The notes beneath the pieces were generated by a model. The model was given only the letters and a program-made list of their open reading frames with translations. It was not told the DNA's origin and did no database searches. From NCBI RefSeq assembly GCF_964204865.1, contig NC_135256.1, positions 2,852,001-2,916,000 on the forward strand: a stretch of 64,000 bases of DNA, written 5' to 3'. A program made the position numbers and the translations under genes. This DNA comes from Styela clava (Eukaryota). The stretch's first letter is position 1, and the number at the start of each line of letters is the position of its first letter. Below, piece by piece: positions 1 through 53,439 of this stretch.

Positions 1-138
1 ATGGACTTCACATCTTATTCTCACTCCTAATTAATATTATTAGAATCCTGCTATGATGCAAAAAAAATTGCAAGACACAGCGCGGAAATCCATTAAAGCT
101 GAGGAAGTTTCAAATCGATCAATTTTCTTTTGGTAGCT

Positions 139-579
139 GGGTCTCGTGTAGTCCCGTACCTAACGTACTTCTAGTGGACGTAGCATAACAATTTTTTGAT
201 ATGTCAATCCTAACCCCCATCTGACTACGCCATCGAAAAATTACGTCACAATCACGTCATAGAGCTTGCCAAATATACGTACAATCACCCGAAATGGCAT
301 TGGCGCCGATGATAAAGAACTGACTGGCATTATCGATCTCTCCCCTATTGGAATCGTTGCGACGAGAAAACGAGAGAAATAACTGTTCGATTTCGGGTGA
401 TCGTTTGCTCGTCTTGGATAGCAGTTCGTATAGTTTGAAGGGCTCTATTACGTCACTGCGACGTCGTGTTGACGTAATTTTTGTATGGTGTAGTCAAGTG
501 GGGGTTATGCTTGATACGTGAAAAAATTGTCATGCTACGCCCACTAGAAGTATGTTAAGTACGAAACTACATGAGACCC
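139..579. mobile_element. Non-autonomous DNA transposon (MITE), Merlin-like
   Basis: About 130-bp imperfect TIRs (GGGTCTCGTGTAG... / ...CTACATGAGACCC) and a perfect 8-bp TSD TGGTAGCT at 131-138 and 580-587. GG termini with an 8-bp TSD fit Merlin. A related copy lies at 53151-53429. Confidence 0.85.
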
Positions 580-3965: not shown

Positions 3966-4217
3966 CTTTAAACTACAGATTTTCGGCCATCTCCAGACAA
4001 TAGTCTTCACTTCCCTTTCTTTAGACATTTTTCTTCAGACAGTATTCAGTTGAAGTGTTTCTGTGTGTAGGACTGCTTGGGACTATAGTTCTTTTGTGTT
4101 ATTTTCCTCATTACAAGGTTTCACGGACATTTTAATCAAACCAAAATTGTTGAAAAATTTTAGCTCATGTAAATAAGAAGCCAAAATGTGTTTGTACCTA
4201 ATTTCATAGTCAGAAAT

Positions 4218-6518
4218 ATGAACAAGCGTTTCCCCGTTGTTTCTAATTTTGATGATTTTGTTGACAATTTTTTATCGGATGAAGAAAGTAGTGATTTCTC
4301 GGATTCTGACGAAATAGACAGTGACGTAGAATTTCATTTGTACAGCCAACTTCATTATGCTGCGGAAAACGAAGTTATATCTGATGCCATATCACTTCAT
4401 AATGAAGTAAGTGTCGTAGAAATATCTGGTATTTCTGCGGATCAGAATGAGAATGCTCGTAGCCAAAATAGGATTGAGCCAATAAACCCACTTGATGGCG
4501 ATAGACAAGATGAAACACCAATCGTAGAAACTTGTTTTTCTGCGGATCAAAATGCCTTTAAGAGTTTTCGTAACCAAAATAAAACTAAGACAATAAATCC
4601 ACTTGGTGGCGATAGACAAGATGAAACTGCAACCTTCTCTACCCAAGACAGCGATACAAGGTTTGGTCAAAATTTCGACAGTTCTATTGAAATCTCGGAC
4701 AGTCCTAGTTCAAAGAATAATCTCATAAATGTTACCCCAATTCTAAATGTCACAGAGGCCGAAGAAACAATTGAACCTTCAATTCCAAGTGAATACAATC
4801 CTGTTTCAGAATCGAAACAGTTCAGCTATGATTCTGACTCTCTTGAAACTGATTTGCTCGTTGAAAGGCCGAACGTTGAGCAAGCCGTTTTAGATGACAA
4901 TTCATCACATAGTTCTATCGATTATATCATAGAAAATGATTTTATTGTTACTGATGAAGTTTCAGGCGATGAAAGTAATTCTGGGCTTGATCGAATTTGT
5001 AGCGGTACTGCGACCCCCACTTTGCAAAAAATTGATGAAAAAAATGATGACAAAGTCTTTAATGAGGAAGATCTTTCTCGTTTACGAGAACATCTGGATT
5101 CGGAAACAAGCGATTTTGTTCCTGAAACTTGGGAAATAGTTGATAGTGTGGAAGATGGCTCTTCTGATAGCTGTGATGGGGGAATAGACCTTCACATCTC
5201 AGAAAAACAAGAGGAACCCGACATGGAAATGGGACAAGAACCAAACGATGCGTGGATTCCAGAAAAAGGCCCAAAGTCATGCTGGAAAATAGATATAGAA
5301 GATACCAAGCAATTTACTACTAATAATAATAATGCTGGCAGAGCAGGGAGGTATTTTGTTGGTAATTCTAAAAATTCAGGAATAAGATGCAGAAATTGTG
5401 ATGAAGTGGGCCACAAAGTGAAAGACTGTACTGTGGAAAAGAAGGGACCAGCATGCTTCATGTGCGGAAACAGGGGTCATGTTGGCCGTGACTGTCCTCA
5501 AAAGGAGGGTTTAAGATACCGGGGGCGACACATGGTATGTAATAGATGTTCTCAAGAAGGTCATATACAAATTGATTGTCCGGATTTATGGAGACAGTTT
5601 CATATAACTACAAAACCTGGTCCTATTCAAGTCCCAACTATACCAGTGCCGCTCAAAAGTGATCCCCAATGCTTTAATTGCGCAGGGATCGGCCACTTTG
5701 GTCATGAATGTGAATCTCCGAGAGCAAATCAATTTTACGCGATGCTAGCGCCTTACGTTCAACGATACGATAAAAAAGCTGTTTCTACGGTTCCACAGGA
5801 TTTAAGAAAGAAATTGAAAGGAAAGAGAAGTTCAGAGTCTCAAGGAAGTTCGCATTTTGAAAGATCTTATGGAGGCAATCGTGGTAACCATGGTGACTTC
5901 TCACAGGAGAAAGAGTCTAATAATAACTATGCAAGACGGAAAGAACGTCAACATATTATATTTGATTCACCTGAACGCCAACCTTCCAAATCCAGAAGAC
6001 ATGGTGTTAAAGTTCAAGTGCGAGAGAGTCGTCAACCGAGCACTGAAAGGCAGAGAATAGCTCATAATCAGCTACGTCCTGCTGACAAGGCGTTACGGAA
6101 AAAGAGCAATAAAAGATCTAAAACGAAGTTTGAAAAAGAAATCCCACAAGAAACAAGTTCATCCACTAGAAAAAAGCTTGACAGAACGTTCAAAAAGCAA
6201 ATTCCACAAGAATCAAGTTCTTCAGCTCTAAACTTTTTTGACAAAAGGGTTGTTTCTTATGAAGTGTCAAAAGATGATGTGCAATTTTCTAAAAATATGC
6301 GAAGCTCAAAGCGAAAAGTATCTTACAAAGAATCTAAATCTCAAAACAAACATTACAACCCAGAACCTAATTTACAAAACGATGAATTTTTTCGTTCAAA
6401 CAGTAAAAATCGAAAATCGAATAATCCTGGCCATTCTTTTGAAAGATCGAATAATAAAAAAAGGAAATTTATTGAACGAGGAAAACCTGATAGAGGTTTT
6501 CGTAGGCATTTTAATTAG
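4218..6518 (+). CDS. ZCCHC7: Zinc finger CCHC domain-containing protein 7 (Air1/Air2-like TRAMP subunit); single coding exon
   Basis: Four CX2CX4HX4C knuckles, the diagnostic WRQFHITTKPGP linker before the last knuckle, an acidic N-terminus and a basic C-terminus. The first ATG is at 4218, after an acceptor-like TTTCATAG ending at 4209. AATAAA at 6585. Confidence 0.9.
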   Translation: MNKRFPVVSNFDDFVDNFLSDEESSDFSDSDEIDSDVEFHLYSQLHYAAENEVISDAISLHNEVSVVEISGISADQNENARSQNRIEPINPLDGDRQDETPIVETCFSADQNAFKSFRNQNKTKTINPLGGDRQDETATFSTQDSDTRFGQNFDSSIEISDSPSSKNNLINVTPILNVTEAEETIEPSIPSEYNPVSESKQFSYDSDSLETDLLVERPNVEQAVLDDNSSHSSIDYIIENDFIVTDEVSGDESNSGLDRICSGTATPTLQKIDEKNDDKVFNEEDLSRLREHLDSETSDFVPETWEIVDSVEDGSSDSCDGGIDLHISEKQEEPDMEMGQEPNDAWIPEKGPKSCWKIDIEDTKQFTTNNNNAGRAGRYFVGNSKNSGIRCRNCDEVGHKVKDCTVEKKGPACFMCGNRGHVGRDCPQKEGLRYRGRHMVCNRCSQEGHIQIDCPDLWRQFHITTKPGPIQVPTIPVPLKSDPQCFNCAGIGHFGHECESPRANQFYAMLAPYVQRYDKKAVSTVPQDLRKKLKGKRSSESQGSSHFERSYGGNRGNHGDFSQEKESNNNYARRKERQHIIFDSPERQPSKSRRHGVKVQVRESRQPSTERQRIAHNQLRPADKALRKKSNKRSKTKFEKEIPQETSSSTRKKLDRTFKKQIPQESSSSALNFFDKRVVSYEVSKDDVQFSKNMRSSKRKVSYKESKSQNKHYNPEPNLQNDEFFRSNSKNRKSNNPGHSFERSNNKKRKFIERGKPDRGFRRHFN

Positions 6519-7537: not shown

Positions 7538-8512
<975 letters not shown>

Positions 8513-17685: not shown

Positions 17686-17717
17686 ATGGGAGGTGCTGTA
17701 GTGTCTCGACTAATTGT
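17686..17717 (+). CDS. REEP: REEP coding exon 1 ([11 protein letters not shown])
   Basis: 32-nt exon ending GT|gtaagt, phase 2, which fits the next exon. Confidence 0.85.
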
Positions 17718-20700
17718 GTAAGTATTATACATATTATTTATTGCTAAAATGAAGAAGCCAATAAGCCTGAAATGAAACATTTCAGAATAATTAAAATGGG
17801 AAATGTTTGTTTTACATCTATGTCTAAATAATTTTAATAGTTCATAATTTGATGTGTTAAATTCTCAATTTTATAAAGTTTTGCTGTGGGTTTTTTTCAA
17901 TTTTATCGGTATAATAAGCAATTGAAATGCCACAGAAGCTTGAATTAAATGTTTCAGAATAATAATTAAAATAAGAAATGGCTATTTTGTATAGAAGTAC
18001 GAACTGTATAACAGTTCGAATATTTTAGTCGATTAGAATTTAAATATATCCATAAGTTGAATGTTTGATTTAAGAAAAGTTCCATTTAAAAAATTATTAT
18101 TTTTTAGACAGGCATAGTTACCGACTAATGTTTCTCACTAAATTTATATGGCTATACACTTGTCAAACATATTAATAAAGTGTCGGAATGAAAGGCCACA
18201 TAAATAAATAAACAATATCTGTTGAAACTTATAGTGTCATATTTTAATGACCCCTCATTGTCAAATTTTGATGCTACTGTTGTCAAATTTTCTTAATGCT
18301 GTTATTACTTCTTTGGACTGTTACAAAATTAGCCAAGTCAGTATTGTAGTAAACAAATAGCACGCCGAGCCCTCAGGTTTCTCTCACTTTCTATATTTGA
18401 AAATATGATTTTATACAGCATTTGGTTGACTTGAATATTCTGTTTTGGCTGTCAATCCTTGTGCGTTGTCCAATAAATTTTTCCATATTAAAATTATATT
18501 TCTCAGGCTCATAGGAGGAACCCTATACCCAGCATATGAATCTTACAAAGCTGTCAAGAGCGCAAATGTCAGACAATATGTAAGTAGATGACTATAAATA
18601 ACGAATAGGACATCTTTGCTAGTCAACCTTTAGATCAGTAATTCCCAAAACACGGCCTGCGGGTTGTTATAGGCGATTTAATATGGCCCGCCGGACTTGA
18701 AAGAAATAGTTTAACCCCTATGTTTTAACTTGCCCGGAACTGGTGGTATATTTACTGGTGCCGGCTGAATCGTTTCCTTCTCCCAGTCCATGAATATCCT
18801 TCCGCTTTCAATTTTTCCTCACGTACACGGTCAATCAACTTCAGTAACCACTGCTTTAGTATTTAGTTTAAAGCAGAGGTCGGCAACCTACGGCCGGATC
18901 CGGCCCGATGAGTAATATAATTCGGCCCGTGACGCTTCACTGAATTATAGTAATAAAACAGCCCTTTGGCGATTATATTCTTTAGACTAAATTATATTAT
19001 AACCTGACAAGTATATAATTCACAATTACTCGTTTAATAAGCCTATAATTTAATTATAATTAGAAAAATGGAAACAAAACGCAGAAAAGTTGATGATAAC
19101 TGCAAAGGGTTCAATGGCGCTGAAAATATATTCAAATTGAATTTTTTGAGATACAAGAACAAAATAAATCTATATTCTATTCGAGAGATGTTTCACTGCT
19201 TGATTTTAAATATAAAAAGTATCATTTGTTCGGTTTTCAAAAATAGGTGCGACCCGCCAATGACTTGCAACCCCTAATGTTGGCCCATGAGCGAGGAAAG
19301 GTTGCCGACCCCTGGTTTAGAGATTTGTAAAATCTATCCTTAATTTGAGAGACTGTTCTGATATTTGGAATTTGCTTCTTCTGAGCTGTTTGCGTTTCAT
19401 TTTTTTTTTCTTCACATATTTTGTTAAGCAGCATCTTGTGGTGCGCGTTGTTATTTGCTATTATCATAGTTATTTGTTCATCAGAGATTGCTTACAATTT
19501 TACTAATGTACGTGAGTTTTAAACAATTCATGGGCCGGTGTTTTCCAAACTTTTGTTATCATGACCTTCTTGGCACGATCAAATTTCTTTGCAACCTCCA
19601 GGACCTAAAATAAAAATTGAGGTGAAATTTAATATTACAGAGAATATTGAAAATATATAGTAATAAAATCCACAATACCTTATTATACGAGAATGATGTT
19701 GTAAGAAGATGCTTGCATATTGCATATGGTAGTGGGTCTCTGTACTGATTCCAAATCTTTCAAATTTAATCGATATTTTGTTTTAACATAATTTGGTGTC
19801 GAAAAATATTTTTTCACAATCCCCATTGAGACCTTTCGTACCTCACGGGCCGGCGGAACCCTCAGTCTGAAGAGCCCTGCCATAGAACTTAACTTCTTTT
19901 GTCAAATAACCATAGAATAGAAATTTCACAAAACCTCCTTTTTTCAGGTCCGCTGGATGATGTACTGGGTTATATTTGCACTTTTTATCACAGTCGAAAC
20001 GTTCACAGATATTCTGTTATCCTGGCTTCCTTTTTATTATGAAATCAAAGTTGGATTCCTTATCTGGCTTCTATCACCGTATACTAAAGGTGCAGCATTT
20101 TTATATAGAAAGTAAGTATTCTTATCTGTTGAATTTTATATTTTCATCTTATCAAATTGAATTTTTACTGATATGCATTTATTGGACTCCCGTAGTATAT
20201 GTACTGGGACAAATACAAATTAGGGTTAGGCCATAATTCTATCCTGATTTTCCTTAAGCTTTCCGTTTGAACTGAGAATATTTTAGTTTTCTTCAGAGTT
20301 TGGGGACTGTCTGTGTTAGCCAAGGGAAAATACCCTCTGCCCATAGTAAGTAAAGTAGGCGAACAAAATTAGTTACCTCCGTATTGGTAGTTGGTACTTC
20401 TGGAGTGCCGATTTATTTACCAGCGTTTACCAAGCTATGGGTCGTGAACCAAAACTGGGTCGCTTGTTTTTTCAACAAAAGCGCGAAAGTTATTGGGTTT
20501 ATTTCAGGATAAATTTTATTGTTTATTATATTTTCAGTCTTGAAGTGTTGCTTAATAGTAATTGTTATATGGGAAGTATCACAGCGTAAAATCTTGGAAG
20601 CATTCATTTTGGGACCTCCTGAAATATGCGCACCAAGATGACGCACAACCTGAACTCAGGTTGTGTACCAGGTTAGGGTTCAGGTTGTGCGACATCTTGG

Positions 20701-23700
20701 TGCGCATACTTCAGGAGTACCCTATTTTGAATACGCTATACATAATTGCCCAAAATTTTCAAAAACTCGCTGATTGCAAACAAGCAGACTTTTTTCACTA
20801 CGACAACTTTAAATTATTTCCTGTTGAAATAAAAATGACTGTTTTATATTAGTCATTTAATTTTGCTGCCATAAAAGTACTATTCTATCCAATTAAAAGA
20901 GTCCAGCTGCACACTAACACAAATGTATTTCTGTAACGTTTCATCCGACCAGAGTCAGACTTCCTCAGACAAGCAGTTTACAACAAGCGGTTGTTGTAAA
21001 CTATTCGCGTTCAGACTAAACACTATTTCCAACAAGCTGTTGTTGTAAACTGCTTGTCTGAGGAAGTCTGACTCTGGTCGGACGAAACATTACAGAAATA
21101 CATTTGTGTTAGTGTGCAGCTGGACTCTTTAATTGGATAGAATAGTCATGTTTATTCCAGCTACAGCATCCTTGCAGTATACGCATACGGATCCACTAGC
21201 ATAAAGGCATAGAGAAAAGATAGGAAGTTAGTCTCGCGCAACCTAACTCAAATTTATAAAAGTACTACGTGCCGTTTCGTGTGTGGGTATAAGAAGGTTG
21301 CAAACTGTCACTCTAATGAAATCCCAATGGATAGAAAATATTATAAGGCACCACCTAAAATCAAAATTAAAATATGACCAGCATTGAAGTCCAGACCATG
21401 GAATGTCCATTTCTATATAATGTGATATAAGCTATGGTGATATAATTAGGTGATGCATAATAACGTGAGGCTTATAATATTGAACAACACAGATTAAATT
21501 AAGCTGCATAATACTTCAGAAAAGACTAATTGATTCTATATATGCTCACTAGTAATCCTAATACGTAACATGCTACGTCTTATGATTTAATTGTCTCGTT
21601 ATTATACAACTAGAAACTATGTGGGAGTAGAATGATGCAATTTGTTCATCAATATAGTGTGTAGGTGATTAAAATTATTGGCTCATAACCATTCCCTATA
21701 TATGGCCTGTATATGGTATTGAATACCTGTACAGTGGGGGTGGGCAAGATTTTAGGACTAGAGGCCAATGCTTTTTCTTATGATACGTTTATTTTGTGCT
21801 GACGAATAAATGATGATTGATTGATTGATAGCCAGTTTTATGTCTAACAACCTGTTTTGCATATTCACAGATTTGTACATCCAACGCTATCACGTAGAGA
21901 GCCTGAAATCGACAGGTTTTTGACGTCAGCGAGAGAGCGAAGTTACGCTACGATGGTTGATGTTGGTACAAGAGGAATCAATGTCGCTGCCAATGCTGTT
22001 GTAACAGCTGCTGTGAAAGTAAGTTGAGATTGAAAAGTTTATTCGGTTTTCATTCTGAATAATAGTTCAGAATTATTCTACCATATTTTCTGAATTTACT
22101 GAAATTCGGTTTTCTGAAGTTTGGAGTACACAATTTTTGGCATTCTAGAAATGTGTGTACCAGGAAGGTAGGAGGTAGCTAATTTTGTTCACCTATTTTA
22201 TGTCAAGTTGTGTAAAGGGACTGAAACCTATTGGCAGGGGGTATATTCACTTGGCTTACACAGACAGTTCCCAAACTCATAATAGAACTAAAATGAGGAA
22301 AATTGGAATAAAATAATGTCTTAATCCTAACAGTACACACACTACGGTCTACGGCAGTACCCAATTTCCTCCAACCTTTCTCTAATCCAAATTTGAAGCC
22401 ATTAAAGCTGACTGAGAGTTTGGATTTTGCTGTAAATTTTTCTTCATTCCTATAATCATACATAAAACCGTTATATATATTTTGTATTGAAATCCACATT
22501 TTACTTTTCTCAGGGCCAAGCCGTCGTCTCAGACAGACTAAAAAGTTTTAGTGTCAATGACCTTTCAAGATTATCAGATGAAACGCCAATTCATTCAATG
22601 AATCCTACTAACTACAATCCACCTATGCAAAGGGAACATTTACACAGGTCTCCGTTAGATCCTCAAAGATTTGAAAGAAGCTCTCAACACCCGCAATCTC
22701 AAAGTGCAATGCAAACAGAAATTCAATACAGACATTCTGCTGAGCAGGGTAGGTATATGCAAGAATGTGTACTCCTGTAGTGTGTGTACTAGGTTAGGGT
22801 TAGGCCATAAGTTTATTCCGATTTTCCTTATTTTAGTTCCATTATAAGTTCGGGGACTGTCTGTGTTAGCCAAGTGACCCCCCTGCCCATAGGTTTCGGT
22901 CCCATTACACAACTTGATTGAAAATTAGGCGTACAAAATTAGTTACCTTCATATTGGTACACATACTTCTGGAGCGCCCAGGAATGTCCAAAAGCGAATA
23001 TCTCACTATTTCGAATACATTCTCAAATGGGATCATGTTCTTGTGAGAAATCATAAAGCCTCATCTTCAAGATCTCGTCTAAAACTGCACAAATCTAAAA
23101 TGTCATTGTTTTCTGAGTTGTTTCTTACCAGTTGAGATATCGTACGCTTTGATATCTTGTCTGACAGCTCAAATTCACTAATTTCTGTTAGATGAAAATG
23201 TTCTAAATTATTCTTAAATTCAAAATTTTACTTTGTGGAATATATTGAAGTTTGAATGTTTTCTATAATCTGCAATTCGTTTTCCACATCTCTGAGTATA
23301 GAGGGTAAAGTATTTCATGATTCATTTTGTGTGGGAGGAAATCTGAAGGCTTCATCGTATGGCCACAATGGATGTTTCCCCGACCCTTGACCTCAGAAGA
23401 TTCTTCCTATACTTCACTATGCAAAATTTTGTATGCTTATTTTAAAACTATTTTGGAGAGTTGGTGCTTATAAACTGGTGTACATGTTCAAAATCATTAT
23501 TCAAGTTTTTAAGCGCATGCCACTTGTAGGTACTGACAGCTAATTTTAGCCCAGTCCCGCAGCATTTGCGGGACAAATTTTGGGGCTCCCGAAGTATGCG
23601 AACCAAGATGGCGGACATCGGAACGTAACATGGGTAACAGGTTAGGGTTAGACGATAATTTTTTTCCAATTTTCCGTATTTTAGTCCTATTATCAGTTCG

Positions 23701-26700
23701 AAGACTAGCCAAGAGCCTCTCGTAGTATTTATACCTAAAATTATGGCCTAGCCCTAACCTAGTACACATATTACATTCCGATGTCCGCCATCTTGGTTCG
23801 CATACTTCGGGAGCCCCCAAATTTTAGATTATTGAAACTCAACTAAAGCAATCCGAGCAACATAAGGACAATTAAATTCCTTGATTCACAACTACTTTTT
23901 GAAAACTTAACTAAAAACTGGCAAATAATACGCAAAACAACAGAAAACATGTCAATGTCTACAACCATGCTTGATTTGTTACATCATTATTGACTTATTG
24001 CTGATCGACCATTGTTACGGAAGTAAACAAGAAAATGCTTGAGGAAACATCCATCACTTTTTCTTGTCAAGTTCATGGTCAATGTCAAGTATGGAAATTT
24101 CATAATATATAACTAAGAAAGCCGCGAGTAACATCCGCTGTGTGCACTCCAGGACAGCCAGCTGGATTTTAATGAAATAAGATTTTTATTGGTCCCAGAA
24201 GAGAGAATATAAAACAGTTTTATCATATTCTAGGGAATTGCGACTCCCAGCTTCGGGGCCCGCCAAGGGGGCCACAGAGCTGTCGAAGTGGGGCCACAAG
24301 CTCACAATGCTAGTCGCGGAACTGATTTCATCTTTTCCTTGACAAGAAAAATCTCCGTTCCTACTAGTTTCATTGCTTGATAAGGTTATTTCACAGAGTG
24401 TTTTCACATTGTTGAGCATAAATTGTTTGAGCATAATGGGCTTTGGAATCTATCAATCAAAATAACACTATAAATACCACTGGGATGTTAAACAGGGAGC
24501 CATAAGTGCCTCAAGAAGTAGGCCACGAGCCCTAAAAGGTTGGAACCACTTTTCAGGACAATACTATGAACCATCCCATGATGGTGAAAAGTCCAGCAAT
24601 ACTTTGAATTCATATATAATTATCCCTCACATTTCATCATAAAGGAATAATTCAATCCACACTAGTAAATTTGAAATTATTTTCGAATTTTTTTTTTCAA
24701 CTTCAGCCTCAGCCATGAATAATGAGCCATATCAGATGATTCATGCACCCACAGCACCATCTAGTGGCCTTTATCCTTCTGCTCCGTCCAGTGACGGGTA
24801 CATGGTGACGGCATCAGGTGACCATGGAGGCCATATTGGTGGCCAATTCAAGGCATACTCAATGATGAATCTCTCTCAAGCAAGAGGGGATCAAGGACAC
24901 AGTAAGTAATTTGTATTGTTCTGTTAGGATAGGATTTACATATTTATCTTGGGAATAGGAAAGACGATAAGGCAGCTTAATCATATGGCGATTCGTCCAG
25001 TTACCAGTCCATGACGGGTATGGGATTAGGTAATTATTAGTTATTAAGCATGGACTTGATGGTGGAGGTGTAACCGAACTGCAGAACCACCCTACGGGCC
25101 AGCAATCTTCTTGCACACCACTATCTTGGTCTATCGGCGGTGTGACGCATCGTGCTAAGCGTTAGGAGTACGCTCGCCACCGCACCTCTGATTACCCTTC
25201 ACGGGTTCGCAGGTTCGAATCCCATGCGGGGATGATCATGTGCGAGAGGATTGCTGGACTTCTCGCCGCCGTAGGGTGGTTCACGTGACAGCTGGTCGGT
25301 TACGGCTTCCTCCACCATCAAGTCCATGCTTTCGAAAACAAAATAAATGGCTAAATAATCCCATACCCGACTTGGAATGGTAACCGGTCGAGAGGCCGTG
25401 GTTCGCCATATGATTAAGCCGTCTTATCGACTTTCCTCTCCCCCAGGATAAATATGTAGATCCTATCCTATCTCCGCGTGGGATTCGAACCCACAGAGGG
25501 TAATCTCGAGGTTCGATGGCAAGCATATTCCTAATACTTAGCATGATATGCCAAATCGCCAAGCCTGCTCTACCTAATAATATATCTGAAACTGCTTAGT
25601 CAGGGTTGACATTCATGTAGATGAATTGGTAGAAAAATCTGATCATGAGAAAGTTTGCTAAAGCAGTAACATGCATGAGCTCATGAGTAAAAAGACTTCT
25701 CTGAGCAGAGTTTTGAGTGACCACTGGAGTCACAAGAGCTACTAAACTGTCGGTAATTAAAAGTTGTGGTTGTGCACCTGTAAATATGCATGATGTGATA
25801 TTTATACATTTTATAGCTGTTCAAGCTAATTCAGTAAACAGTCATAAGATATAATCCTAAGTATGCTTGCTCTCAGCACTTTTTGGAAGTACCAGAATTT
25901 CCCTGTGCGGATGTGCTACCAAGTTTATCACACCATGGGTGAGGTGGTGGCAGTGTTCCCTCTAAGGTGTGCGCGTGCACACAGCTTTCAGAGGCTGCGC
26001 ACACGCATAGATTTACTGCGCACAGACGTATTTCGATGTAATGTAACAATGTTCTTTTTCCACCCTTTATTTGAATTAAAATAAAACCATCTGCTACAAT
26101 CAATTTCATTTATTATTTTCCATGTATGTTCATTGTTATCTACTGATAACATATAGCCTTCACTAAAGCATTTACAATCTATAGAAAAACTTATTGAATA
26201 ACCAAAATTTTCTTAATAAGCCCACTTATTATCCGGTTAGAACGTCAAAATTTCTTCATTGGTTTTTGCACAAATATTAGTCATTTCCAAAAAAGTGCGC
26301 ACACACTGAAATTTCTGCGCACACATACTACAATAATTAGAGGGAACATTGGGTGGTTGGCATCAAATTTGAAATTTGGTCATGGAATTTGAATCCAAGA
26401 ATTTAGACTTGCAATCAGCAGTTGAGTCATATTGAATTAAACTGAGAAGTAATTTAATAATTCTTCCTTCACAGCTTTAATGACCCGAACAATAGAATTC
26501 ACATCAGCACCACCAGAAACTTCTGTGGACGACTCGATGCTTCCCGACCATCATGAATACAATGTATCAGGCGATGACAGACCTTACGATACATTGCCGA
26601 GGCAGAGAAGGAAAAAGAGCAGTAAAAAAGTGAGTAAAGCTCAGTTATCAGTAGAGTTTCCACGAGACTAAATTCCGATTTATTCTCAATGCCTTTACAT

Positions 26701-28457
26701 TAATGAAACCGTATGCTTATAATGCAAGGATGCTGTAGCAGGAATAAACATGACTATACTATGCAATTCAAGAGTCGTGCTGCACACTAACAAAAATATA
26801 TTTCTGTAACGTTTCTGACCAAAATCAGACATTGTTGTAAACTGCTTGTCTGAGGAAGTCTGATCTTGGTCAGACGAAACGTTACAAAAATACATTTGTG
26901 TTAGTGTGCAGCAGGACTCTAGAATTTTGAATTGCATAGAAAGTTCAGTTAATTTAAATAGCATGTTCCTAACTCTTGCTCCATTCCCTCTGCCTTTGTG
27001 TTAGTTAATCTGTACCTCAAACCATGCAAGTATTATGGTGCATTATGACATAGGTTCTCAAAGTGCTTCATACAGAGCCCAAAATTTCTGTGAGAGAAAC
27101 CTAGGGGCTCTGGGAGTTATTCATTTATTTGTTAAAATACTGACTTGGCTAATTTCGTAACTTTCCAAAGAAGAATAAACGACATAAATAAAATTTGACA
27201 ACGAGACGGTATTTCAAATATGACATCTATTTCAGGGGTTCCCAAATCATGGGTCGCGACCCCAAATTGAGTCGGAGTGATAAGTAGGTAGGGTCGCAAA
27301 CACGTCATGGGGTCGCTGAGGTATGGTAGAGGATAGATGTACAAAACATCTAAGATTCGACAAACCATGTTAAATTTAGCAGTTTGTACCATGGCTTACT
27401 GTAAAACAGGCCCATAAACATCGCTCTATGCTTATGCTATAGAAAATGTAGGTGCTTATTGTGACATCACTGTTTGGTTTTAGCTTATTTTAGTTAATAC
27501 CACCACATGACCAAACTCAAAAGTCCAGTGAAAGTAGCTCTATATCTCTGATCTATATCTATATGTTCCAATATACGGGCCAAATTTCAATTACAGACTT
27601 ATTGCGACAGTATGAATTTTTTTGAATACAAAGCAGTATATACACACGAGTCACTAAATAAATTAATTTCAATTTAGGAACATTAATTAGTAACTAACGA
27701 TGTGCTGTTTTTTCTGTATAATAAGACAATGTATTACATCACAATGTAAACTTCAACTATTTAATTTTTTGTGCCCGCTTGCTCCAGCTTGGACTATGGA
27801 AAAGAAGAAAGGTTTCACTATTATTACTTTTTATGCTTTTTGATTTTCATTGTTTAAATAACATTCAAATCACTTTTCATCCAAAATAAATTTGTTAAAG
27901 TTGTAAAATTGAAATAATGCATGATACTCTTCCCAAACCATTGACCAATTATGGACCGCATAACAATTTTCGCCGAATTTAGGTGACATAGTTTCACACT
28001 TCATGTTTTTACCTTTTTTTGTTCTAAATATCGCCAATTGTGGCACCCGTAGTGTGTGTACCAGGTTAGGCCATAACTTTATTCCGATTTCTTTTATTTT
28101 AGTTCTATTACGAATTTGAGGACTGTCGCTGTAAGCCAAGTGAATATACCCCCTGCTCATAGGCTTCAGTCCCTTTACACAACTTGATGTAAAGTAGGCG
28201 AACAAAATTATTTACCTCCGTATTGATACACACACTTCTGAAGCGCCGAACTCTTAATGCAAATGATTGTAAAAGGGTCTCGCAATTGGACCAGTGGACT
28301 GTGTAGTGACTTATTCAATTTCAAACATATCTCAATGCTTATCTAACCAATCCCTCTCATCCAGGACAAAGAATCAACATCAGTTCGAAGATCAAAGCGA
28401 CATTCAAAAGCACAATCATATCATGAAGGAAGTTTAGATGAGAGGGATAGAGAATGA
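17686..28457 (+). CDS. REEP: Receptor expression-enhancing protein, REEP1-4 subfamily (TB2/DP1/HVA22); 8 coding exons, 364 aa
   Basis: Exons 17686-17717, 18507-18579, 19948-20111, 21871-22018, 22514-22748, 24707-24901, 26475-26629 and 28365-28457. All introns are GT-AG with compatible phases, and the total is 1095 nt. Translation includes [28 protein letters not shown]...[13 protein letters not shown]...WLPFYYEIK...LSPYTKGA...FVHPTL...[17 protein letters not shown]. Confidence 0.9.
18507..18579 (+). CDS. REEP: REEP coding exon 2
   Basis: tctcag| [24 protein letters not shown] |gtaagt. Confidence 0.92.
18636..18853. mobile_element. hAT MITE in REEP intron 2
   Basis: CAGT...CACTG ends; TSD CTTTAGAT/CTTTAGTA (6/8). 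Confidence 0.6.
18874..19314 (+). mobile_element. Internally deleted hAT (Charlie/SPIN/Buster-like) element
   Basis: CAGAGGTCGGCAACCT...AGGTTGCCGACCCCTG TIRs, TSD GTTTAAAG/GTTTAGAG. It retains [16 protein letters not shown], resembling the transposase N-terminus. A second copy is inverted at about 39122-39450. Confidence 0.75.
19948..20111 (+). CDS. REEP: REEP coding exon 3
   Basis: tttcag| [13 protein letters not shown]...[10 protein letters not shown](K) |gtaagt. Confidence 0.93.
20184..20409 (+). mobile_element. Merlin-like MITE (TTAGGG-bearing family)
   Basis: GG...CC termini, TSD CATTTATT/GATTTATT, internal TTAGGGTTAGG. Confidence 0.75.
20612..20721. mobile_element. Short palindromic Merlin-like MITE
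   Basis: Near-complete hairpin with CAAGATG and GGTTAGGGTT motifs. Similar copies at 40343-40452 and 63581-63690. Confidence 0.7.
20931..20972 (-). ncRNA. Minimal type I hammerhead ribozyme motif (antisense arm)
   Basis: The reverse strand reads TTGT CTGAGGA A GTCTGAC-TCTG-GTCGGAT GAAA CGTT ACAG. Confidence 0.7.
21054..21095 (+). ncRNA. Minimal type I hammerhead ribozyme motif (stem III variant)
   Basis: TTGT CTGAGGA A GTCTGAC-TCTG-GTCGGAC GAAA CATT ACAG: core, 7-bp stem II and stem I TTGT/ACAG. The stem-III palindrome is broken by G>A. Confidence 0.7.
21871..22018 (+). CDS. REEP: REEP coding exon 4
   Basis: tcacag| [14 protein letters not shown]...AAVK |gtaagt. Confidence 0.92.
22139..22361 (-). 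mobile_element. Merlin-like MITE (TTAGGG family)
   Basis: Inverted family copy; TSD CAATTTTT/CAATTTCC. Confidence 0.65.
22514..22748 (+). CDS. REEP: REEP coding exon 5
   Basis: tctcag| [17 protein letters not shown]...AEQ |gtaggt. It contains the RSFS-like motif of REEP1-4. Confidence 0.85.
22768..22978 (+). mobile_element. Merlin-like MITE (TTAGGG family)
   Basis: TSD CAAGAATG/CAGGAATG; GGTTAGGGTTAGG. Confidence 0.7.
23582..23817. mobile_element. Merlin-like MITE (CAAGATGGCGG + TTAGGG subfamily)
   Basis: TIRs GGGGCTCCCGAAGTATGCGAACCAAGATGGCGGACATCGGAA; perfect 8-bp TSD CAAATTTT. Confidence 0.85.
24707..24901 (+). CDS. REEP: REEP coding exon 6
   Basis: cttcag|...|gtaagt, phase 1 at both ends, open frame. 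An alternative in-frame acceptor lies 6 nt downstream. Confidence 0.75.
24925..25560 (-). mobile_element. tRNA-derived SINE (host copy, split by a nested SINE)
   Basis: 3' part at 24925-25120 and 5' tRNA-like head at 25474-25560 (B box GGTTCGAATCCC on the minus strand). Confidence 0.75.
25136..25470 (+). mobile_element. tRNA-derived SINE (full length)
   Basis: A-box-like head, B box GGTTCGAATCCC, body with CTTCCTCCACCA and an (ATCCT)n tail. Multiple copies occur in the window. Confidence 0.85.
25951..26351. mobile_element. hAT MITE
   Basis: CAGTGTTCCCTCT...AGAGGGAACATTG; TSD GGTGGTGG/GGTGGTTG. Confidence 0.75.
26475..26629 (+). CDS. REEP: REEP coding exon 7
   Basis: tcacag|...RRKKSSKK|gtgagt; phases compatible. 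Confidence 0.75.
26648..26939. mobile_element. Second Penelope-like hammerhead fold-back element (opposite orientation)
   Basis: Homologous to 20883-21255 including the tail; inverted arms; flanking repeat AAAGCTCAGTTA/AAAGTTCAGTTA (11/12). Confidence 0.7.
26846..26887 (+). ncRNA. Minimal type I hammerhead ribozyme motif (intact)
   Basis: TTGT CTGAGGA A GTCTGAT-CTTG-GTCAGAC GAAA CGTT ACAA: intact core, 7-bp stem II, palindromic ACGT stem III, GUU triplet and stem I TTGT/ACAA. Confidence 0.75.
28042..28247 (+). mobile_element. Merlin-like MITE (TTAGGG family)
   Basis: High similarity to the other copies; TSD degraded. Confidence 0.65.
28365..28457 (+). CDS. REEP: REEP terminal coding exon
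   Basis: atccag| [15 protein letters not shown]...RDRE* in phase 0. Confidence 0.7.
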   Translation, partial: DKESTSVRRSKRHSKAQSYHEGSLDERDRE

Positions 28458-28670
28458 GGTTACTATGAGTCATTGACCTGGAGTTATGACCTTAGGGGTA
28501 ACTCTGGGTCATTGACCCTTGCTATTGGTCAATGATTTGATACAATTTATAAGACTATCAGTGAACAACCAAGGATGGCTTTTGGTTACTTTTTGGGGTT
28601 ACTGTGGTTCAAAGATGAAGGTTACTATGGGTCAATGACCCAAACCACTGTCCTTAAAGGTCAGTGAACT
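28457..28670. promoter_or_regulatory. Cluster of nuclear-receptor-like DR4 and IR1 half-site repeats in the REEP 3' UTR
   Basis: AGGTTActatGAGTCAtTGACCT, GGGTAActctGGGTCAtTGACCC, GGGTTActgtGGTTCA, AGGTTActatGGGTCAaTGACCC and AGGTCAgTGAACT within 215 bp. Function is inferred only. Confidence 0.4.
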
Positions 28671-29668: not shown

Positions 29669-31322
29669 CATGTTTTTTGCTGATTTTATTGCTTAAATTT
29701 TCGTCTGACAAAAGACACTGACACTGACACTTGTGAACTGCTTGTTTGACAGCGTCTGACTTTGGTCAAACATAACATCACAGAATAAAATGTAATAAGG
29801 TATTCAAAATACTTGAGCCATTCAATTATGGACATTTCAATGATTGCTCGTTAGATCCTATTTTCAATGTTAGACAATACTACTACCTAGTCAGCCCATA
29901 ATTTTCTTTATTTATATATACGTAATGGGAAAAATTTAAGTGCAATATTGGACTTGGATGTTTTTCTGAAACTATGAGTTTGTTTTGAGCACTGCTTTTG
30001 AATTCAGCAAACAAAACACCTTTATCAGAAACAAAGTAATCCTATACCCGACATCAACTGGTAACCAGATAAGAGCCGGTAGTTTCATATGATTAGACTG
30101 TCTTATGGGCTTTCAACTCGTCCGGGTAGATATGAAAATCCTATCCAAGAGTGACTAAAATTGAATAATGACAATTCGAATTACGTCTTGAAATAAAGAT
30201 GCCGAATATGGAATATATACATTATAAATTATGCCATGTTTAACAGAGGTAACATTGAATTTACTGTGTTTACAACACACAGTCCATGCATCTGAAACAT
30301 CTAACTGGCCAACTAATCCCATACCCGACATAGATGGTAACCGGACGAGAGGCATGTTTCGCAATATGATTAAGCCTCTTATTGACTTTATTCTCCACTC
30401 CACCATGGGTAAATATGTAAAAATCCCAACACAACCCTCCCGCAAGCCTCTACAGACCCCATGGAATATCATATTTGCAGGAGAACGATTTGCATATGCA
30501 TATTTTAAATGTCTTTTAATTATTGCAACACAGCTAGTAACATTGCACACAAAATTAGCCTTGTTTTTTGCGTTCACTCTGCCTTTGCAGGGTGTCGGTT
30601 TTTGACTGTTTATCTTCACCAAATTTCTCTTGTATAGTTTGCTGACCTATCTTCAATTAGGAATACGGTTTAGTTTTAAAATAATTTGAAATTAATTCTC
30701 CTTAGATCTATTTTAAATTACCGTCAAAATTTTTTTTCTGTAAAGATTTGCCAATTTAAAAAAAATATTTTTGTAAAGTTCCAATCAATAGTGAGTAAAA
30801 ATATATTAAGAGTGTCCCTGTTGTGTCAAAACTGTTTTTTCTGTAAGGATTGTGAATTTTAAAAAGAAATTTTATTGACTGAAATTTAGCATATATCAAG
30901 GGTGTCACTGCTTGATAACCATTTGGTTTGAATATGGACATCACTATCTGTAACATATCCAAAAATTTTAACGACTTTTTTTTTTTACAAACATTTGTCA
31001 AGTTTTTCTCTCTGGTTCAAATTATCCAATTCACTGAGGCAGCTTAGTTTGAGAAGCATTATATAGATTGCCATTATCCTATTGCTTTTTGCATTATTTT
31101 TTTTTCTATTTCACAGGCCTGCTTGTAATAAGCTACCTTTCATTTTTTAATGTTCATTCTTTCACACATCAAGTGCTGCTTCTAGTTCATTGTACAGGGG
31201 TGTATACCGGCTTAAAGTCATTCAAAATAAGCGCATTGTTGATGAATTGGGTTAATTAGTATCAAGGATATTCAAAACTGAATAAGTTGTTATTCTGAAC
31301 ACATTCCAGAATAAAATTTTTG

Positions 31323-36248: not shown

Positions 36249-37479
36249 TTAGACAGGTGAGCATGCTTGATCGATCGATGGCGACTTAGGAGCATTTCTA
36301 CCTGTTTTATTTATCGTGTTAAAATTATTCATATGGATGTCCTGAGACTTCTGACTACAAGGGATTTTGACGGGACCGTATCGGGTGTACGCAAAAAAAA
36401 TCCCGCCAAAACAAGGCCCGCCCCATTCAGAGCAAAGTTTATAGACACTTTGATTCAGAGATAAATGGATAGCTAGTACGTTGCCATAGAGACAATATTC
36501 ATCGTCGTAAACATTCACATTATATGAAATAGCTAGAGCGATTAAATTTTCAACAGAAAAAAGGATTGAAAATATGACATCGGCAATGTCGTCACTATCA
36601 ACAGAAGTCCAACTGAACAGAAATACACTGCTCCATATTAAGTGACGTGCAGCGTTTATACAACGCCTTCCCCCCTTCGGTTGGTTGCGAATGAACCCAA
36701 TCCCAATCAATACCCAGTGAATTCCCATAAAAAAGGCCGTCCACCACCCAGATATAAAACAAAACAAAAGAGCTATGCTCAAATATATGGACACGCAGCG
36801 CCACCCAGTGGCAATAATTTTGATGACGTTATAGCGAAAAAAAAGTAATAGCCTTCTGGAGAAAAATTTTATCTTTAACCACTGAAAATATCAAAGCAAT
36901 TGGTCCAGTATTCGAAGAGAAAAGCGATTTTTTTAAAATGGAGACGGAGACAAATAACAATAACAACAAAATTTTGAAACGATCGTTATGGCCACTAAAC
37001 GTGTCCAATAAACGAGAGAAAGAATTCGAGCCGACAGACAGACAGTTTTAATTACGGAAAGCAGAACAAATTTATACAGATCTTTGTTTGAGGGTTCACG
37101 TTCTTCATCTTCTTTCATAGTTTTTTCGGCTGATGATATAAAAGATATAGCAGCGGAAACATACAACTGTACATAAATATTCTCTCCACAAAATGAAAAA
37201 AGTAAGATTAATCTAAAGATCTGTGATGGATTTGACAGAAATTCCAATGCACTTGATGACTGATAAAATTTTCTCACCGGGGTCATCTCTGCCCCCTGAT
37301 TTCTTAATGATGATAAAGCCATACCAGATGAACACGATCCCACCCAAAACAAGCGACACCGTTGCCAGAATTGCTACAGTCTTACTTTCCGATTCCCAGT
37401 CGACAATCACCGAAAGAATATCAGTGTTATATCGCAAGAAAAGGCACTTTGCCACATTTATATTGCACTCCCAAAACAA
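36249..37479 (-). pseudogene. XK-related protein (XKR-like) copy 1, disrupted
   Basis: Multi-transmembrane fragments paralogous to 50678-51683 (ARIL, GIHWVL, ENLIA). Disruptions: in-frame TAG at 37213-37215, frameshifts, and a 218-bp TIR insertion at 36789-37006. Confidence 0.7.
36789..37006. mobile_element. Short TIR insertion within XKR copy 1
   Basis: GGACACG...CGTGTCC termini; absent at the aligned position of copy 2. Confidence 0.6.
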
Positions 37480-43116: not shown

Positions 43117-43142
43117 AATATGTAATCACGACAAGTAGTGAT

Positions 43143-43764
43143 TGTCAGATTTAGGCACACAGATGTTCCATGTCATACGCGTTTATTGTAAAACGGTTGA
43201 CTGTAAATAAAGTGAAATAATCAATAAACAATCACAAGATGAGGGCGGAACGAAAATGCATAACCAGAAAGTTAATAGAAAATAAACTTACATATGATAA
43301 CGCTCCAATCGACAAGAAACTGACAGGTAACGTGAACGATCACGTTATTAGACTATAATAGAAACTAAATTTAGAAAGCAGTTATGAAAATGAAAGCAGA
43401 ATGAAATATAAAAATACATGAACAATTAAAGCAATAAATGACGACGATGGTCATATGGGGCCCCGGTTACGATACCCTCACCACAGTTCTACCTAACGAG
43501 ACCAAATGCCACCCACACGCTAAGTCAGTAAAGCGGATAATGCGAAACCACACCACCGACACCATAACAAGATTAAACATGAACGTCCTACTACGCGTAA
43601 AGTCGAGATGCAAGAGCCACGCGCGACACGTCAGGTGCAGTAAAGCCCGCGAAATTCGCGTCAAAACAGAAAAGCAATTATCGATAAAAATTAGCCGGTC
43701 GGAACACAAGGAAGAACAGCGTTCAAAATAATATTCAACTGAAAAGAAACTTCTATCGCCGACA
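43143..43764 (-). repeat. 3' LTR
   Basis: Direct repeat of 49474-50095 with 4 differences noticed by eye. Confidence 0.95.
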
Positions 43765-43979
43765 CAGCCGCCCCCAATAACCCTTCAAGGGGTTATTCAT
43801 TTTCCAGGAGGCATAGTTTTGTCACAGGTCTGGTTATTTCCCCATTTGTTGTTTTAACGGTTGCGACACGCACCCGGTTATCTTTTCCAGGGAAAACTTT
43901 GATAACTCTTCCTAGTAGCCAACTTCCTCTTGGCGCGCCGTCATCTACAACAATTATGATATCATCTATCGATAAATTC

Positions 43980-46900
43980 CTATGATCTTTCAGCCACTTT
44001 GTTCGAGTCATCACTCATCAGCATTGGTAGATACTCTCGCCGCCATCGCTTCCAGAACTGATTCGAGATTGCTTCGGTTTGTCTCCATCTTCTCCGATGC
44101 GCTGTTGATGTACAATCCGTATCCAAAGGTGTATTTGCGTCAGTATGCCCACGTATAAGACAATTGGGCGTGAGGGGTGCTGGATCACGTACGTTGTCCC
44201 CAATATGAGTTAAAGGACGGCTGTTCATAATATCGGAAATTTCAGCGAACGCAGTCGTTAATACTTCGTCCGTTACACATAGGTTACCAAGGACTGCCTT
44301 CAAAGTACGCTTTGCACTCTTGACGAGCCGCTCCCAGATGCCCCCGAAATGAGGGGCATAAGGTGGCGAAAAATTCCAATCAATGCCTTTCTTCAAACAT
44401 TCGTTGGTAATGCGAGTTTGATCCAGATCAGAAATTAATTGCCGTAATTCTCTTAAAGCGCCAACGAAATTGGACCCGTTGTCACTCCATATTCCTTTCA
44501 CGGGGCCTCGGATTGCTGTAAACCTTCTAAGAGCGCATATGAAAGAATCAGTTTCCATTGACCAGGCCAATTCCAAATGCACTGCTCTACACGATAAACA
44601 AGTAAAAATACATCCCCATCTCCTTTCAGTGGACCGTCCTCGTTTCACGTACAGTGGACCAAAGTAATCTATCCCACTGTTCAAAAATGGCCTCGCCTCC
44701 GTCAGACGAACCTCGGGCAAGTTTGCCATAAGGGGCGGTTGAGGGCGAGCTGAGCGTTTCCGACACGGCCAACAATTCTTTACTGCGCGACTGGCAAGTT
44801 TGCGACCCTTCAATGGCCAGAATATTTGTCGGATCGACGCTAACATTGCATCTGGGCCAGAATGCGCTAATCGACAATGAGCTGCACACATCAGAAGCCA
44901 AGACACACGACAAGAACAATTATCTTTACACTTAGTGCTACTGTATGGCAATATTATTGGATGCCTCGTTTCAAGCGGCTCAGGTGACTCTTGTAAACGA
45001 CCATTTGCACGCAAGAAGACTCCATCGAAAAAAGGTGTCAACGACAATAACGGTGACCTGCACGAGAGTAATTTATTCGATTTCAAAGCATTTATTTCTT
45101 CTATAAAATGCTCTCGCTGGGCCGCTATTATCCACATCATGCCACTCAGTTCTAAAAGTTTCGGACGAAGCTCTAAGATTTTGGTCTTTCTTCGAAACAC
45201 ATCCGCGACTGCAATTACCATAGCTGTCCGCTTGCATAACGAGTACCATGTGGAAAACATTTCCACCCTGATTAAGTTGTCGATGCGGATTTTGTCATTC
45301 AAAAATTCGTATTTATGGATTTCCGGCCACGTAACTGTAAAACAGACCTTTCCGCGAACTTCGCAATCACGATTGGTAATTGCTCCTAATACCGGCTGTT
45401 GGGGCCACGATGATTCAGGCAACAATAAAAACTTTGGTCCGTTTATCCACACGTTATCGCTTTCGATGAATTTGTTCATGGGCATGACTCTCGTACAACA
45501 ATTCGCTGGATTATTTTGGGTATTGACATAACGCCACTGCGCAGGTTCAGTGCAGTCAAGAATTTCACGCAGTCTATTTGCAACAAATGTTTTGAATCTT
45601 ATTTTAGTGTTTCTGAGATATCTCAGAACACACGTAGAATCTGACCACAACATTTCGCATGTGATGGGCAGGGTTAAAGACTTGCGCAGAAATTTCAGCA
45701 GACGCGCGGATAATAAGACACTTTGCAGCTCTAGTCTGGGAACGGACATATGTTTCATCGGGGAGACTCTTGATTTGGCCATCAAAAAACTACAATTCAC
45801 ACACTGGCCTTTCTTGGCACGCAAGTAAGCCACGGTACCATAAGCTTGTTCAGACGCGTCGCAAAACAAGTGGAGCTCATAAGTGGCGTCGGTTTTCGAG
45901 ACTCCTAAATATTGTCTAGGCACACGAAAATTAGTCAATTGTTTTAACGATTCGGTCCAGTCGCCCCAAGTATTCTTCCTACGGTCATCAAAATTTTCGT
46001 CCCATTTCAAGTCATCTCTCCAGCACTCCCGTATAAGTAGTTTTGCAGTTAAAATAATAAGGGCTAAAATTCCGAGAGGATCAAAAACCGATGCCGTCGC
46101 GCTTAGCGCCTCTCTTTTTGTAACAGGTTTTGCCAACGAATTGTAAATAAAGAAGAAATCATCGTCATTAGTGTTCCAGTGAAGTCCCAACGCCTTAGAA
46201 ACGGGCAAACAATCAAAATCTAGATCAACATCAGGATTAAGACGATCCTCTGTGTTAAATTTCGACAATAATGTTTTGGAATTTGAAAGCCATTTTGTCA
46301 ATCGAAAACCCCTACTTGCTAACATATTAGAAACTTCTTGTGCGACGGAGAAATCGGAGTCATCATTCCATTTTGATGAAAGCAGATCATCTACGTAAAA
46401 ATCCCTGAGAACAGTTTCTACTGCTTCCGTTGAGAATTGGCTGGTATTATCAAGCGCGGTTTGTTTAAGGCAGTAATTTGCAACATATGGCGAGTCGACC
46501 GCACCGAAAATCCTTACTAAAAACTGATATACATCAGGTGGGGATGTTGATCTTAGATCTTCTTGCCAGAGAAATCTAACTGAATCGGTGTCTGACTGCG
46601 GTAGACGCACCATATGATACATGGCTTCAATATCAGCGTTCAATGCAACGGGTCTTTCTCTGAATCGCAGTAAAACACCAATTAAATTATTAATAAGATC
46701 TGGTCCCGAATATATCTGATTATTTAAACTAATTCCACAATATGTTGCAGCGGCGTCAAAAACTATTCTTATCTTGCCGGGTTTATTCGGATTCTGAACT
46801 CTATGATGGGGCAGGTACCAAGTTCGAGGACCCAAAGTATCCCGTTCTTTATCGGTCAGTTTTCGCACCCAGCCACGTTCGATATTTTTCCTCATAGACG

Positions 46901-48221: not shown

Positions 48222-48277
48222 AACAAATTTATTCCAACTTGAATTCAGTTCTTGAGGAATCCTGTTTGAAACTCTCC

Positions 48278-49464: not shown

Positions 49465-49473
49465 ATTCAACTT

Positions 49474-50095
49474 TGTCAGATTTAGGCACACAGATGTTCC
49501 ATGTCATACGCGTTTATTGTAAAACGGTTGACTGTAAATAAAGTGAAATAATCAATAAACAATCACAAGATGAGGGCGGAACGAAAATGCATAACCAGAA
49601 AGTTAATAGAAAATAAACTTACATATGATAACGCTCCAATCGACAAGAAACTGACAGGTAACGTGAACGATCACGTTATTAGACTATAATAGAAACTAAA
49701 TTTAGAAAGCAGTTATGAAAATGAAAGCAGAATGAAATATAAAAATACATGAACAATTAAAGCAATAAATGACGACGATGGTCATATGGGGCCCCGGTTA
49801 CGATACCCTCACCACAGTTCTACCTAACGAGACCAAATGCCACCCACACGCTAAGTCAGTAAAGCGGATAATGCGAAACCACACCACCGACACCATAACA
49901 AGATTAAACAAGAACGTCCTACGACGCGTAAAGTCGAGATGCAAGAGCCACGCGCGACACGTCAGGTGCAGTAAAGCCCGCGAAATTCGCGTCAAAACAG
50001 AAAAGCAATTATCGATAAAAATTAGCCGGTCGGAACACAAGGAAGAACAGCGTTCAGAATAATAATCAACTGAAAAGAAACTTCTATCGCCGACA
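49474..50095 (-). repeat. 5' LTR
   Basis: Direct repeat of 43143-43764. Confidence 0.95.
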
Positions 50096-53429: not shown

Positions 53430-53439
53430 TAAAACATAA

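What the first reader, a model, noticed from the sequence alone, without database searches (positions are those of the whole stretch)
26636..26951. Second hammerhead element with structure-preserving changes; two sense-strand ribozymes in one pre-mRNA
Seen: an independent, oppositely oriented insertion about 20 nt after the REEP exon 7 donor, with an 11/12 TSD. Its sense-strand hammerhead is intact. Stem II differs from copy 1 only by pairing-compatible changes (U-G vs U-A, C-G vs U-G) and loop changes, while the antisense arm has lost its core. Inference: REEP pre-mRNA carries two sense hammerheads (21054 and 26846) that could in principle form the double-hammerhead needed for cleavage. The fold-back arms and the G>A change in copy 1 may act as a safety lock that lets the element persist in introns.
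Basis: partly seen in the sequence, partly recalled or inferred. Interest (0 to 1): 0.7.

Follow-up and report, generated by a model that had tools for sequence, protein, structure and literature searches.

The report
Folded-back Penelope transposon scrap in intron
A 316-base leftover of a common jumping-gene family sits in an intron with a self-cutting RNA motif that is predicted to be trapped in its own hairpin, likely as a by-product of how these elements insert, so it looks ordinary.

Summary
In detail: 11/12 target-site duplication, insertion 19 nt into the intron after REEP coding exon 7, intact sense minimal hammerhead, truncated antisense arm. The interpretation mostly does not. Both REEP copies are terminal-repeat (pLTR) fragments of a Penelope-like retrotransposon family with uninterrupted RT plus GIY-YIG parents and at least 453 exact cores in this genome. 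The stem II differences are inherited subfamily marks (138 and 97 exact cores), not local compensation. Freeing the two cores is predicted to cost about 25 and 66 kcal/mol, and copy 1 lacks the dimer palindrome, so a cross-intron double hammerhead is very unlikely. The fold-back is the family's insertion signature (28 of 28 close pairs head to head); copy 1's G>A is a CpG hotspot. A lock is not required: 41 of 68 intact cores have no adjacent arm, and unpaired intronic cores ran 3 sense:6 antisense (strict) or 8:8 (relaxed). One lead survives: 0 of 4 intronic same-strand pairs were both sense and unpaired.

The parts
26636..26647 (+). left target-site duplication of copy 2
   Evidence: 11 of 12 identical to right copy
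26648..26830 (-). long pLTR arm (antisense to REEP), 5'-truncated inside stem II, 3-nt deletion next to GAAA; 86% to subfamily A
26830..26939 (+). short pLTR arm (sense to REEP), starts at the family's usual 5' boundary; 96% to subfamily A over 26830-26926
26846..26887 (+). minimal type I hammerhead of copy 2; predicted cut after U17 at 26883; predicted to be paired with the long arm
26940..26951 (+). right target-site duplication of copy 2
26475..26629 (+). REEP coding exon 7; spliced at its normal donor in contigs of three studies
20871..21267 (+). copy 1 in intron 3: 12-nt TSDs 20871-20882 and 21256-21267, short antisense arm to 20986, 53-nt filler, long sense arm 21040-21255; subfamily B, 96-97% to the pLTR of a full-length element
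21054..21095 (+). copy 1 sense hammerhead with G16.2>A at 21089 (CpG transition; breaks the ACGU palindrome)
20931..20972 (-). copy 1 antisense-arm hammerhead with C11.1>U at 20943 (also a CpG transition)
17686..28458 (+). host gene REEP/DP1 family, 8 coding exons (17686, 18507, 19948, 21871, 22514, 24707, 26475, 28365)

Best explanation
This is a fragment of the terminal repeat of a Penelope-like retrotransposon family, inserted as two head-to-head arms between 12-base target duplications, and its hammerhead is predicted to be folded shut and is likely an inert passenger that is spliced out with the intron. Shown: family membership, uninterrupted RT + GIY-YIG parents, two preferred RNA-sense 3' ends (about +40..60 and +150..170 from the cut site), a preferred 5' end near -51, head-to-head geometry, normal splicing of the host exon. 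Inferred: the element's protein nicks both target strands about 12 nt apart and primes reverse transcription at two internal sites near the 5' end of the element RNA; the two short cDNAs are joined, one usually truncated, which gives a long arm, a short arm and an automatic fold-back whichever strand the host transcribes. Selection on the ribozyme likely acted on the source elements (subfamily stem II variants keep pairing); inserted copies then likely decay neutrally, fastest at CpG.
For: Copy 1 arms 96-97% to the pLTR of L083; uninterrupted 960/940-aa RVT_1 + GIY-YIG frames between the same cores in L296, L299, L302, L304, L306 (Pfam on 3 of these 5). 453 exact cores, control 0; subfamilies A 138, B 97, C 153; copy 2 stem II equals A but for one loop base. 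End clustering. 28 of 28 opposite-strand core pairs within 1 kb among the 297 listed cores are head to head (counted by eye). TSD of 9 nt or more in 18 of 29 relatives, mostly 10-14. Cost to free the core 24.8 (copy 2) and 65.8 (copy 1) kcal/mol; ACAU/ACGU duplex +0.9 vs ACGU/ACGU -1.7. In 116 arms not chosen for an intact core: CpG sites 48 of 478 changed vs 185 of 4182 (p 1e-6); catalytic core 54 of 1145 vs non-core 69 of 1825 (p 0.22). Both arms of copy 2 are about equally decayed in their shared span. Unpaired intact sense cores in predicted introns L145, L173, L164, L181 with no other arm in 8 kb. Literature passages: inverted truncated pLTR, tail and 8-10 bp TSD typical (PMC3846280; PMC8557442); single min-HHR inactive, dimers weak, opposite-strand pairs 100-700 bp apart known (PMC4209133); both target strands cleaved and extended from internal RT starts, no reads ending at the cut site (PMC11167929).
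Against: No cleavage assay or raw RNA reads were available. The orientation test is small and rests on my own exon predictor (17 or 25 of 64 loci called); strict count 3:6 leans antisense and cannot exclude a modest bias. All 4 intronic same-strand multi-core insertions I could place were antisense (L084, L296, L304) or sense but mostly paired (L031). The core changes slightly more than non-core sites (4.7% vs 3.8%, not significant). No autonomous subfamily A parent was found; copy 2's long arm is only 86% to its best relative held. The gap between the two 3' end classes (about 110 nt) is longer than the 30-40 nt tail in the papers. Nearest-neighbour folding ignores tertiary contacts and proteins.
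Confidence: 0.88

Rival explanations
1. Filter version of the lock: fold-backs arise mechanically, but the host purges insertions that put two or more free sense cores in one pre-mRNA, so tandem arrays would survive in introns only antisense or folded back. This could hold for the family without giving this copy a role.
For: 0 of 4 placeable intronic multi-core insertions are sense and free: CYP intron L084 three cores antisense, FN3-gene intron L296 pair antisense with the one sense core in the inverted arm, L304 pair antisense, L031 three sense cores of which two are predicted fully paired. A preprint reports retrozymes under-represented in Xenopus introns, with no strand analysis in the passages seen (10.64898/2026.07.22.740005).
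Against: n = 4; seven other multi-core loci could not be placed in a gene or lay between genes (L076, L079, L080-82, L299, L302, L305, L306), as did L083. Antisense bias of full-length elements can come from promoter, splice or poly(A) signals (general knowledge). L031's and L304's host genes were not confirmed by Pfam. Monomers show no clear bias.
Confidence: 0.17
2. One reading: the sense cores at 21054 and 26846 meet in REEP pre-mRNA and cleave as a double hammerhead, held back by the arms and the G>A.
For: Both cores are on the REEP sense strand within one transcription unit; minimal hammerheads need a partner (PMC4209133).
Against: About 91 kcal/mol of hairpin must melt; the modelled 1+2 double hammerhead (-13.3) is weaker than the free 46-nt monomers (-22.8); co-folding both elements pairs the distal arms and leaves both cores shut; 5.8 kb and four exons apart in different introns; spliced contigs span exons 5-8.
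Confidence: 0.02
3. The pair matters as double-stranded RNA, not as ribozyme: the free distal arms of copy 1 (intron 3) and copy 2 (intron 7) would pair around exons 4-7 and favour back-splicing or editing.
For: Distal arms form a predicted -106 kcal/mol duplex vs -28 +/- 5 for shuffles, starting 19 nt from the exon 7 donor (pair I4).
Against: Other repeat pairs in the same introns pair more strongly (-200, -156); the contigs shown are linear splices (tables were cut).
Confidence: 0.06

Closest known systems
Minimal hammerheads (min-HHR) in pLTRs of metazoan Penelope-like elements (Cervera and de la Pena 2014, PMC4209133)
   Same: Type I core, 7-bp helix II, 4-bp helix I, extra base between 9 and 10.1, G10.1-C11.1, palindromic 15.2-16.2, mostly solo copies, opposite-strand pairs close together
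   Different: Nothing of kind; a new host family. My one search for ascidian + hammerhead ribozyme + Penelope found 0 papers
EN+ Penelope-like elements with C-terminal GIY-YIG, Neptune-like by linker motif (PMC8557442, PMC3846280)
   Same: Single RT + GIY-YIG frame, pLTRs, partial tandems, inverted 5'-truncated copy, optional extension at one end, TSD
   Different: This copy has no coding sequence; extension about 110 nt rather than 30-40; clade not tested by a tree
PAc Poseidon element of Anolis (Frangieh 2024, PMC11167929)
   Same: Two internal 3' end classes near the 5' end of the RNA, AT-rich targets, hammerhead upstream of those ends
   Different: Here the ORF starts about 200 nt downstream of the cut site rather than inside stem II
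Non-LTR retrozymes (bioRxiv 10.64898/2026.07.22.740005)
   Same: Subfamily A also exists as a 588-nt non-coding tandem unit with one core per unit (L031)
   Different: Copy 2 is an inverted monomer fragment, not a tandem array

Membership tests
EN+ Penelope-like element (family of origin) | Single ORF with RT and C-terminal GIY-YIG | tested here: met
   in parents of subfamilies B and C; not in this fragment; no A parent found
EN+ Penelope-like element (family of origin) | Direct pLTRs flanking the ORF | tested here: met
   L083 208-nt repeats 98% alike; same in L296, L299, L302
EN+ Penelope-like element (family of origin) | Inverted 5'-truncated copy, head to head | tested here: met
   copy 2 itself; 28 of 28 close pairs
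EN+ Penelope-like element (family of origin) | Optional 30-40 nt tail at one end | tested here: inconclusive
   two 3' end classes present, but about 110 nt apart
EN+ Penelope-like element (family of origin) | Target-site duplication | tested here: met
   11/12 and 12/12 here; 18 of 29 relatives 9 nt or more
Neptune clade | CX2-5CxxC linker and CCHH motif at the endonuclease | tested here: met
   read by eye in the L083 translation against the description
Neptune clade | RT phylogenetic placement | not tested
   no reference RT set was fetched
Minimal type I hammerhead | Core CUGANGA / GAAA / UH with G10.1-C11.1 | tested here: met
   26850-26883
Minimal type I hammerhead | Helix II 7-8 bp, helix I 4-5 bp, extra base after A9 | tested here: met
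   7 bp, 4 bp, A26857
Minimal type I hammerhead | Palindromic helix III seed for dimers | tested here: met
   ACGU in copy 2; broken (ACAU) in copy 1
Minimal type I hammerhead | Self-cleavage as a dimer | not testable with these tools
   only contigs, no raw reads
Active double hammerhead in REEP pre-mRNA | Two free cores with complementary helix III | tested here: not met
   folding and duplex energies; prediction only
Non-LTR retrozyme | Tandem units each with a complete hammerhead | tested here: not met
   copy 2 is a single inverted insertion; relative L031 meets it

The most novel reading that the evidence does not exclude
Penelope's head-to-head insertion silences its own ribozyme on either strand, and the host purges only insertions with two free sense cores in one pre-mRNA. 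The strand and pairing state of tandem versus single intronic copies would then be a genomic read-out that these minimal hammerheads really cut RNA in vivo.
Probability: 0.17. Interest if true: 0.5.

Novelty: new member of a known kind. Interest (0 to 1): 0.14.

Why it matters
As it stands it does not: one of hundreds of pLTR scraps. It would matter if the family-level filter were real, because in vivo cleavage by Penelope minimal hammerheads is undemonstrated in the papers read (PMC4209133, PMC11167929), and this genome has young uninterrupted parents, three subfamilies and both single and tandem copies, which makes the test cheap once gene annotation is at hand.

Tried and rejected
Rfam scan of the window: 0 matches. 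Fossil evidence of cleavage: if cleaved RNA were copied, arms should start at +1; truncated arms were 9 of 30 at +1 (38 matches), 9 of 30 at +3 (40 matches) and 7 of 30 at -1 (48 matches), so no peak (automatic classes, a few borderline, two duplicated flanks). The apparent excess near the cut site (11 of 63 arm ends at -5..+2) was spread over several positions on inspection. Giant-element idea for pLTRs 8-21 kb apart: no element frame between them. Autonomous subfamily A parent: none in the loci fetched. No RNA holder listed on record; four runs guessed as RNA gave spliced contigs but contigs cannot show ends. The 15-kb read laying was swamped by repeats. Presence/absence polymorphism could not be scored; the one DNA sample has a 26412-26658 contig at about double depth, which fits both haplotypes carrying the left junction, and it may be the assembled sample. 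Lunse et al. on dimer cleavage was not held; only its title was seen in a reference list. Supplements of the papers were not opened and may list related families.

Full report
Observation. The element spans 26636-26951 with TSDs matching at 11 of 12. It lies in the intron after coding exon 7 of a REEP/DP1 gene (Pfam PF03134; exons). Contigs from three studies, guessed to be RNA, cover 26475-26630 and stop there; one 1975-nt contig places 22514-22747 and 28365 onward 351 nt apart, which fits exons 6 and 7 spliced in.

What it is. A search of the own genome (377 Mb) gave 82 matches among 40 scored candidates of 2903. The 34-nt core pattern has 453 exact matches, control 0, of which three exact variants make up 138 (A), 97 (B) and 153 (C). 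Copy 1 is B; copy 2 is A with one loop change. So the 'structure-preserving changes' between the REEP copies were inherited from different source elements. Same-strand cores 3.4-3.9 kb apart enclose full-length elements: L083 (frameshifted; RVT_1 and GIY-YIG pieces) and uninterrupted 960-aa (L296, L299, L302) and 940-aa (L304, L306) frames (Pfam for three). Copy 1's arms are 96-97% identical to the L083 pLTR. Subfamily A also forms a 588-nt non-coding tandem unit with an inversion and a 12-nt TSD (L031). The motif fits the minimal hammerhead of Penelope-like elements point by point (PMC4209133, parts 1-2 of 4 read).

How it likely arose. Across fetched loci, arm 3' ends (RNA sense) cluster at +40..60 and +150..170 from the cut site and 5' ends near -51, with a spread of truncations through the ribozyme. 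Copy 2 is the common outcome: long arm truncated at -25, short arm starting at -53. All 28 opposite-strand core pairs within 1 kb among the 297 cores listed are head to head (by eye), so the antisense arm is transcribed first whichever strand is read. Inverted truncated pLTRs, an optional tail and TSDs are described as typical (passages of PMC3846280 and PMC8557442), and a purified Penelope-like protein cleaves and extends both target strands from internal start sites (PMC11167929, parts 1-2 of 4). The twin-priming model for this family is my inference from these.

Double hammerhead. Freeing the core costs a predicted 24.8 kcal/mol in copy 2 and 65.8 in copy 1; native stem II probability is 0.0004 and about 0; ACAU/ACGU gives +0.9 against -1.7 for ACGU/ACGU; the modelled heterodimer (-13.3) is weaker than the monomers (-22.8). 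No transcription prefix of copy 2 forms stem II, and even without its arm the probability is only 0.026; co-folded, the two elements pair through their distal arms and both cores stay shut. These are model energies without tertiary contacts or proteins.

Safety lock. G16.2 is a CpG site: 48 arms genome-wide have another base there, and 14 of the first 30 are G>A point changes, copy 1 among them. In 116 arms not selected for an intact core, CpG sites changed in 48 of 478 cells against 185 of 4182 elsewhere, while catalytic non-CpG positions (54 of 1145) did not differ significantly from non-core ones (69 of 1825, p 0.22). CpG o/e is 0.50-0.79 over 8-36 kb of the window and mostly 0.9-1.2 outside, which fits gene-body methylation (established knowledge). 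Of 68 intact-core insertions taken in order (contigs C1-C3; four late C3 loci and the tandem or full-length loci left out), 41 had no arm within 120 nt, 17 had the core paired, 7 had a non-overlapping opposite arm and 3 an arm that misses the core. With my own exon predictor (partly checked by Pfam), 17 of 64 loci were called intronic under the strict rule and 25 of 64 under the relaxed one; after dropping L144 (between paralogues) and L168 (LINE), unpaired cores were 3 sense:6 antisense (p 0.25) and 8:8. L145, L173, L164 and L181 carry an intact sense core with no other arm in 8 kb; L146 has a diverged opposite arm 2.9 kb away. So single cores need no lock, as expected if monomers are inactive.

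What remains open. Among insertions with two or more same-strand cores, four could be placed in introns: three antisense (L084, L296, L304) and one sense with two of three cores predicted fully paired (L031); eight others were intergenic or unplaced. That is compatible with a filter on dimer-competent arrays but is too few to count as evidence, and has other explanations. A test for arms starting at the cut site found no peak. A preprint (10.64898/2026.07.22.740005; part 1 and passages) reports intronic under-representation of retrozymes in Xenopus. Searches listed no paper on strand bias of intronic Penelope hammerheads or on ascidian ones; the library lacks most subscription papers. The label 'sea squirt' comes only from an earlier AI note and was not tested.

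Verdict. Real feature, new member of a known kind, most likely inert. Interest 0.14.

Noticed in passing
L296 3283-6162, L299 5339-8218, L302 5917-8796, L304 3450-6269, L306 5244-8063: Uninterrupted 940-960 aa RT + GIY-YIG frames of two Penelope-like subfamilies, some in partial tandem and inverted arrangements; suggests recent activity.
   Followed up: partly
L031 4280-6850 (G000:C1:6694280-6696850): 588-nt retrozyme-like tandem unit (pLTR, about 80 codons related to the ORF start, 3' end) with an inversion and 12-nt TSD; many 95-99% relatives. Candidate circular RNA.
   Followed up: partly
L080-L082 (G000:C2:27104776-27129566): Array of nine same-strand cores at 1.9 and 4.9 kb spacing ending in one inverted core.
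   Followed up: partly
L084 5570-6662: 360-nt tandem of three subfamily B cores antisense in a cytochrome P450 intron.
   Followed up: yes
window 21150-21250 and 26648-26755: Free distal arms of the two copies can pair around exons 4-7 (predicted -106 kcal/mol).
   Followed up: partly
window 43142-49772: BEL/Pao-type LTR retrotransposon with identical 300-nt LTRs (Pfam Peptidase_A17); a young insertion.
   Followed up: no
window 7538-8512: Intronless PP2A-like catalytic subunit gene (Metallophos), next to a single-frame 781-aa zinc-knuckle gene at 4173-6518.
   Followed up: no
window 36249-37373 and 50678-53799: Several XK-related gene copies or fragments on the minus strand, on both sides of the LTR element.
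   Followed up: no
window 29731-29785 and 58567-58649: Two more decayed fragments of the same pLTR family.
   Followed up: no
window 8000-36000: CpG depletion confined to this stretch (o/e 0.50-0.79), consistent with mosaic gene-body methylation.
   Followed up: partly
window 20220-63700: Abundant short inverted-repeat family (TTAGGGTTAGG-containing) with more than ten copies in the window.
   Followed up: no
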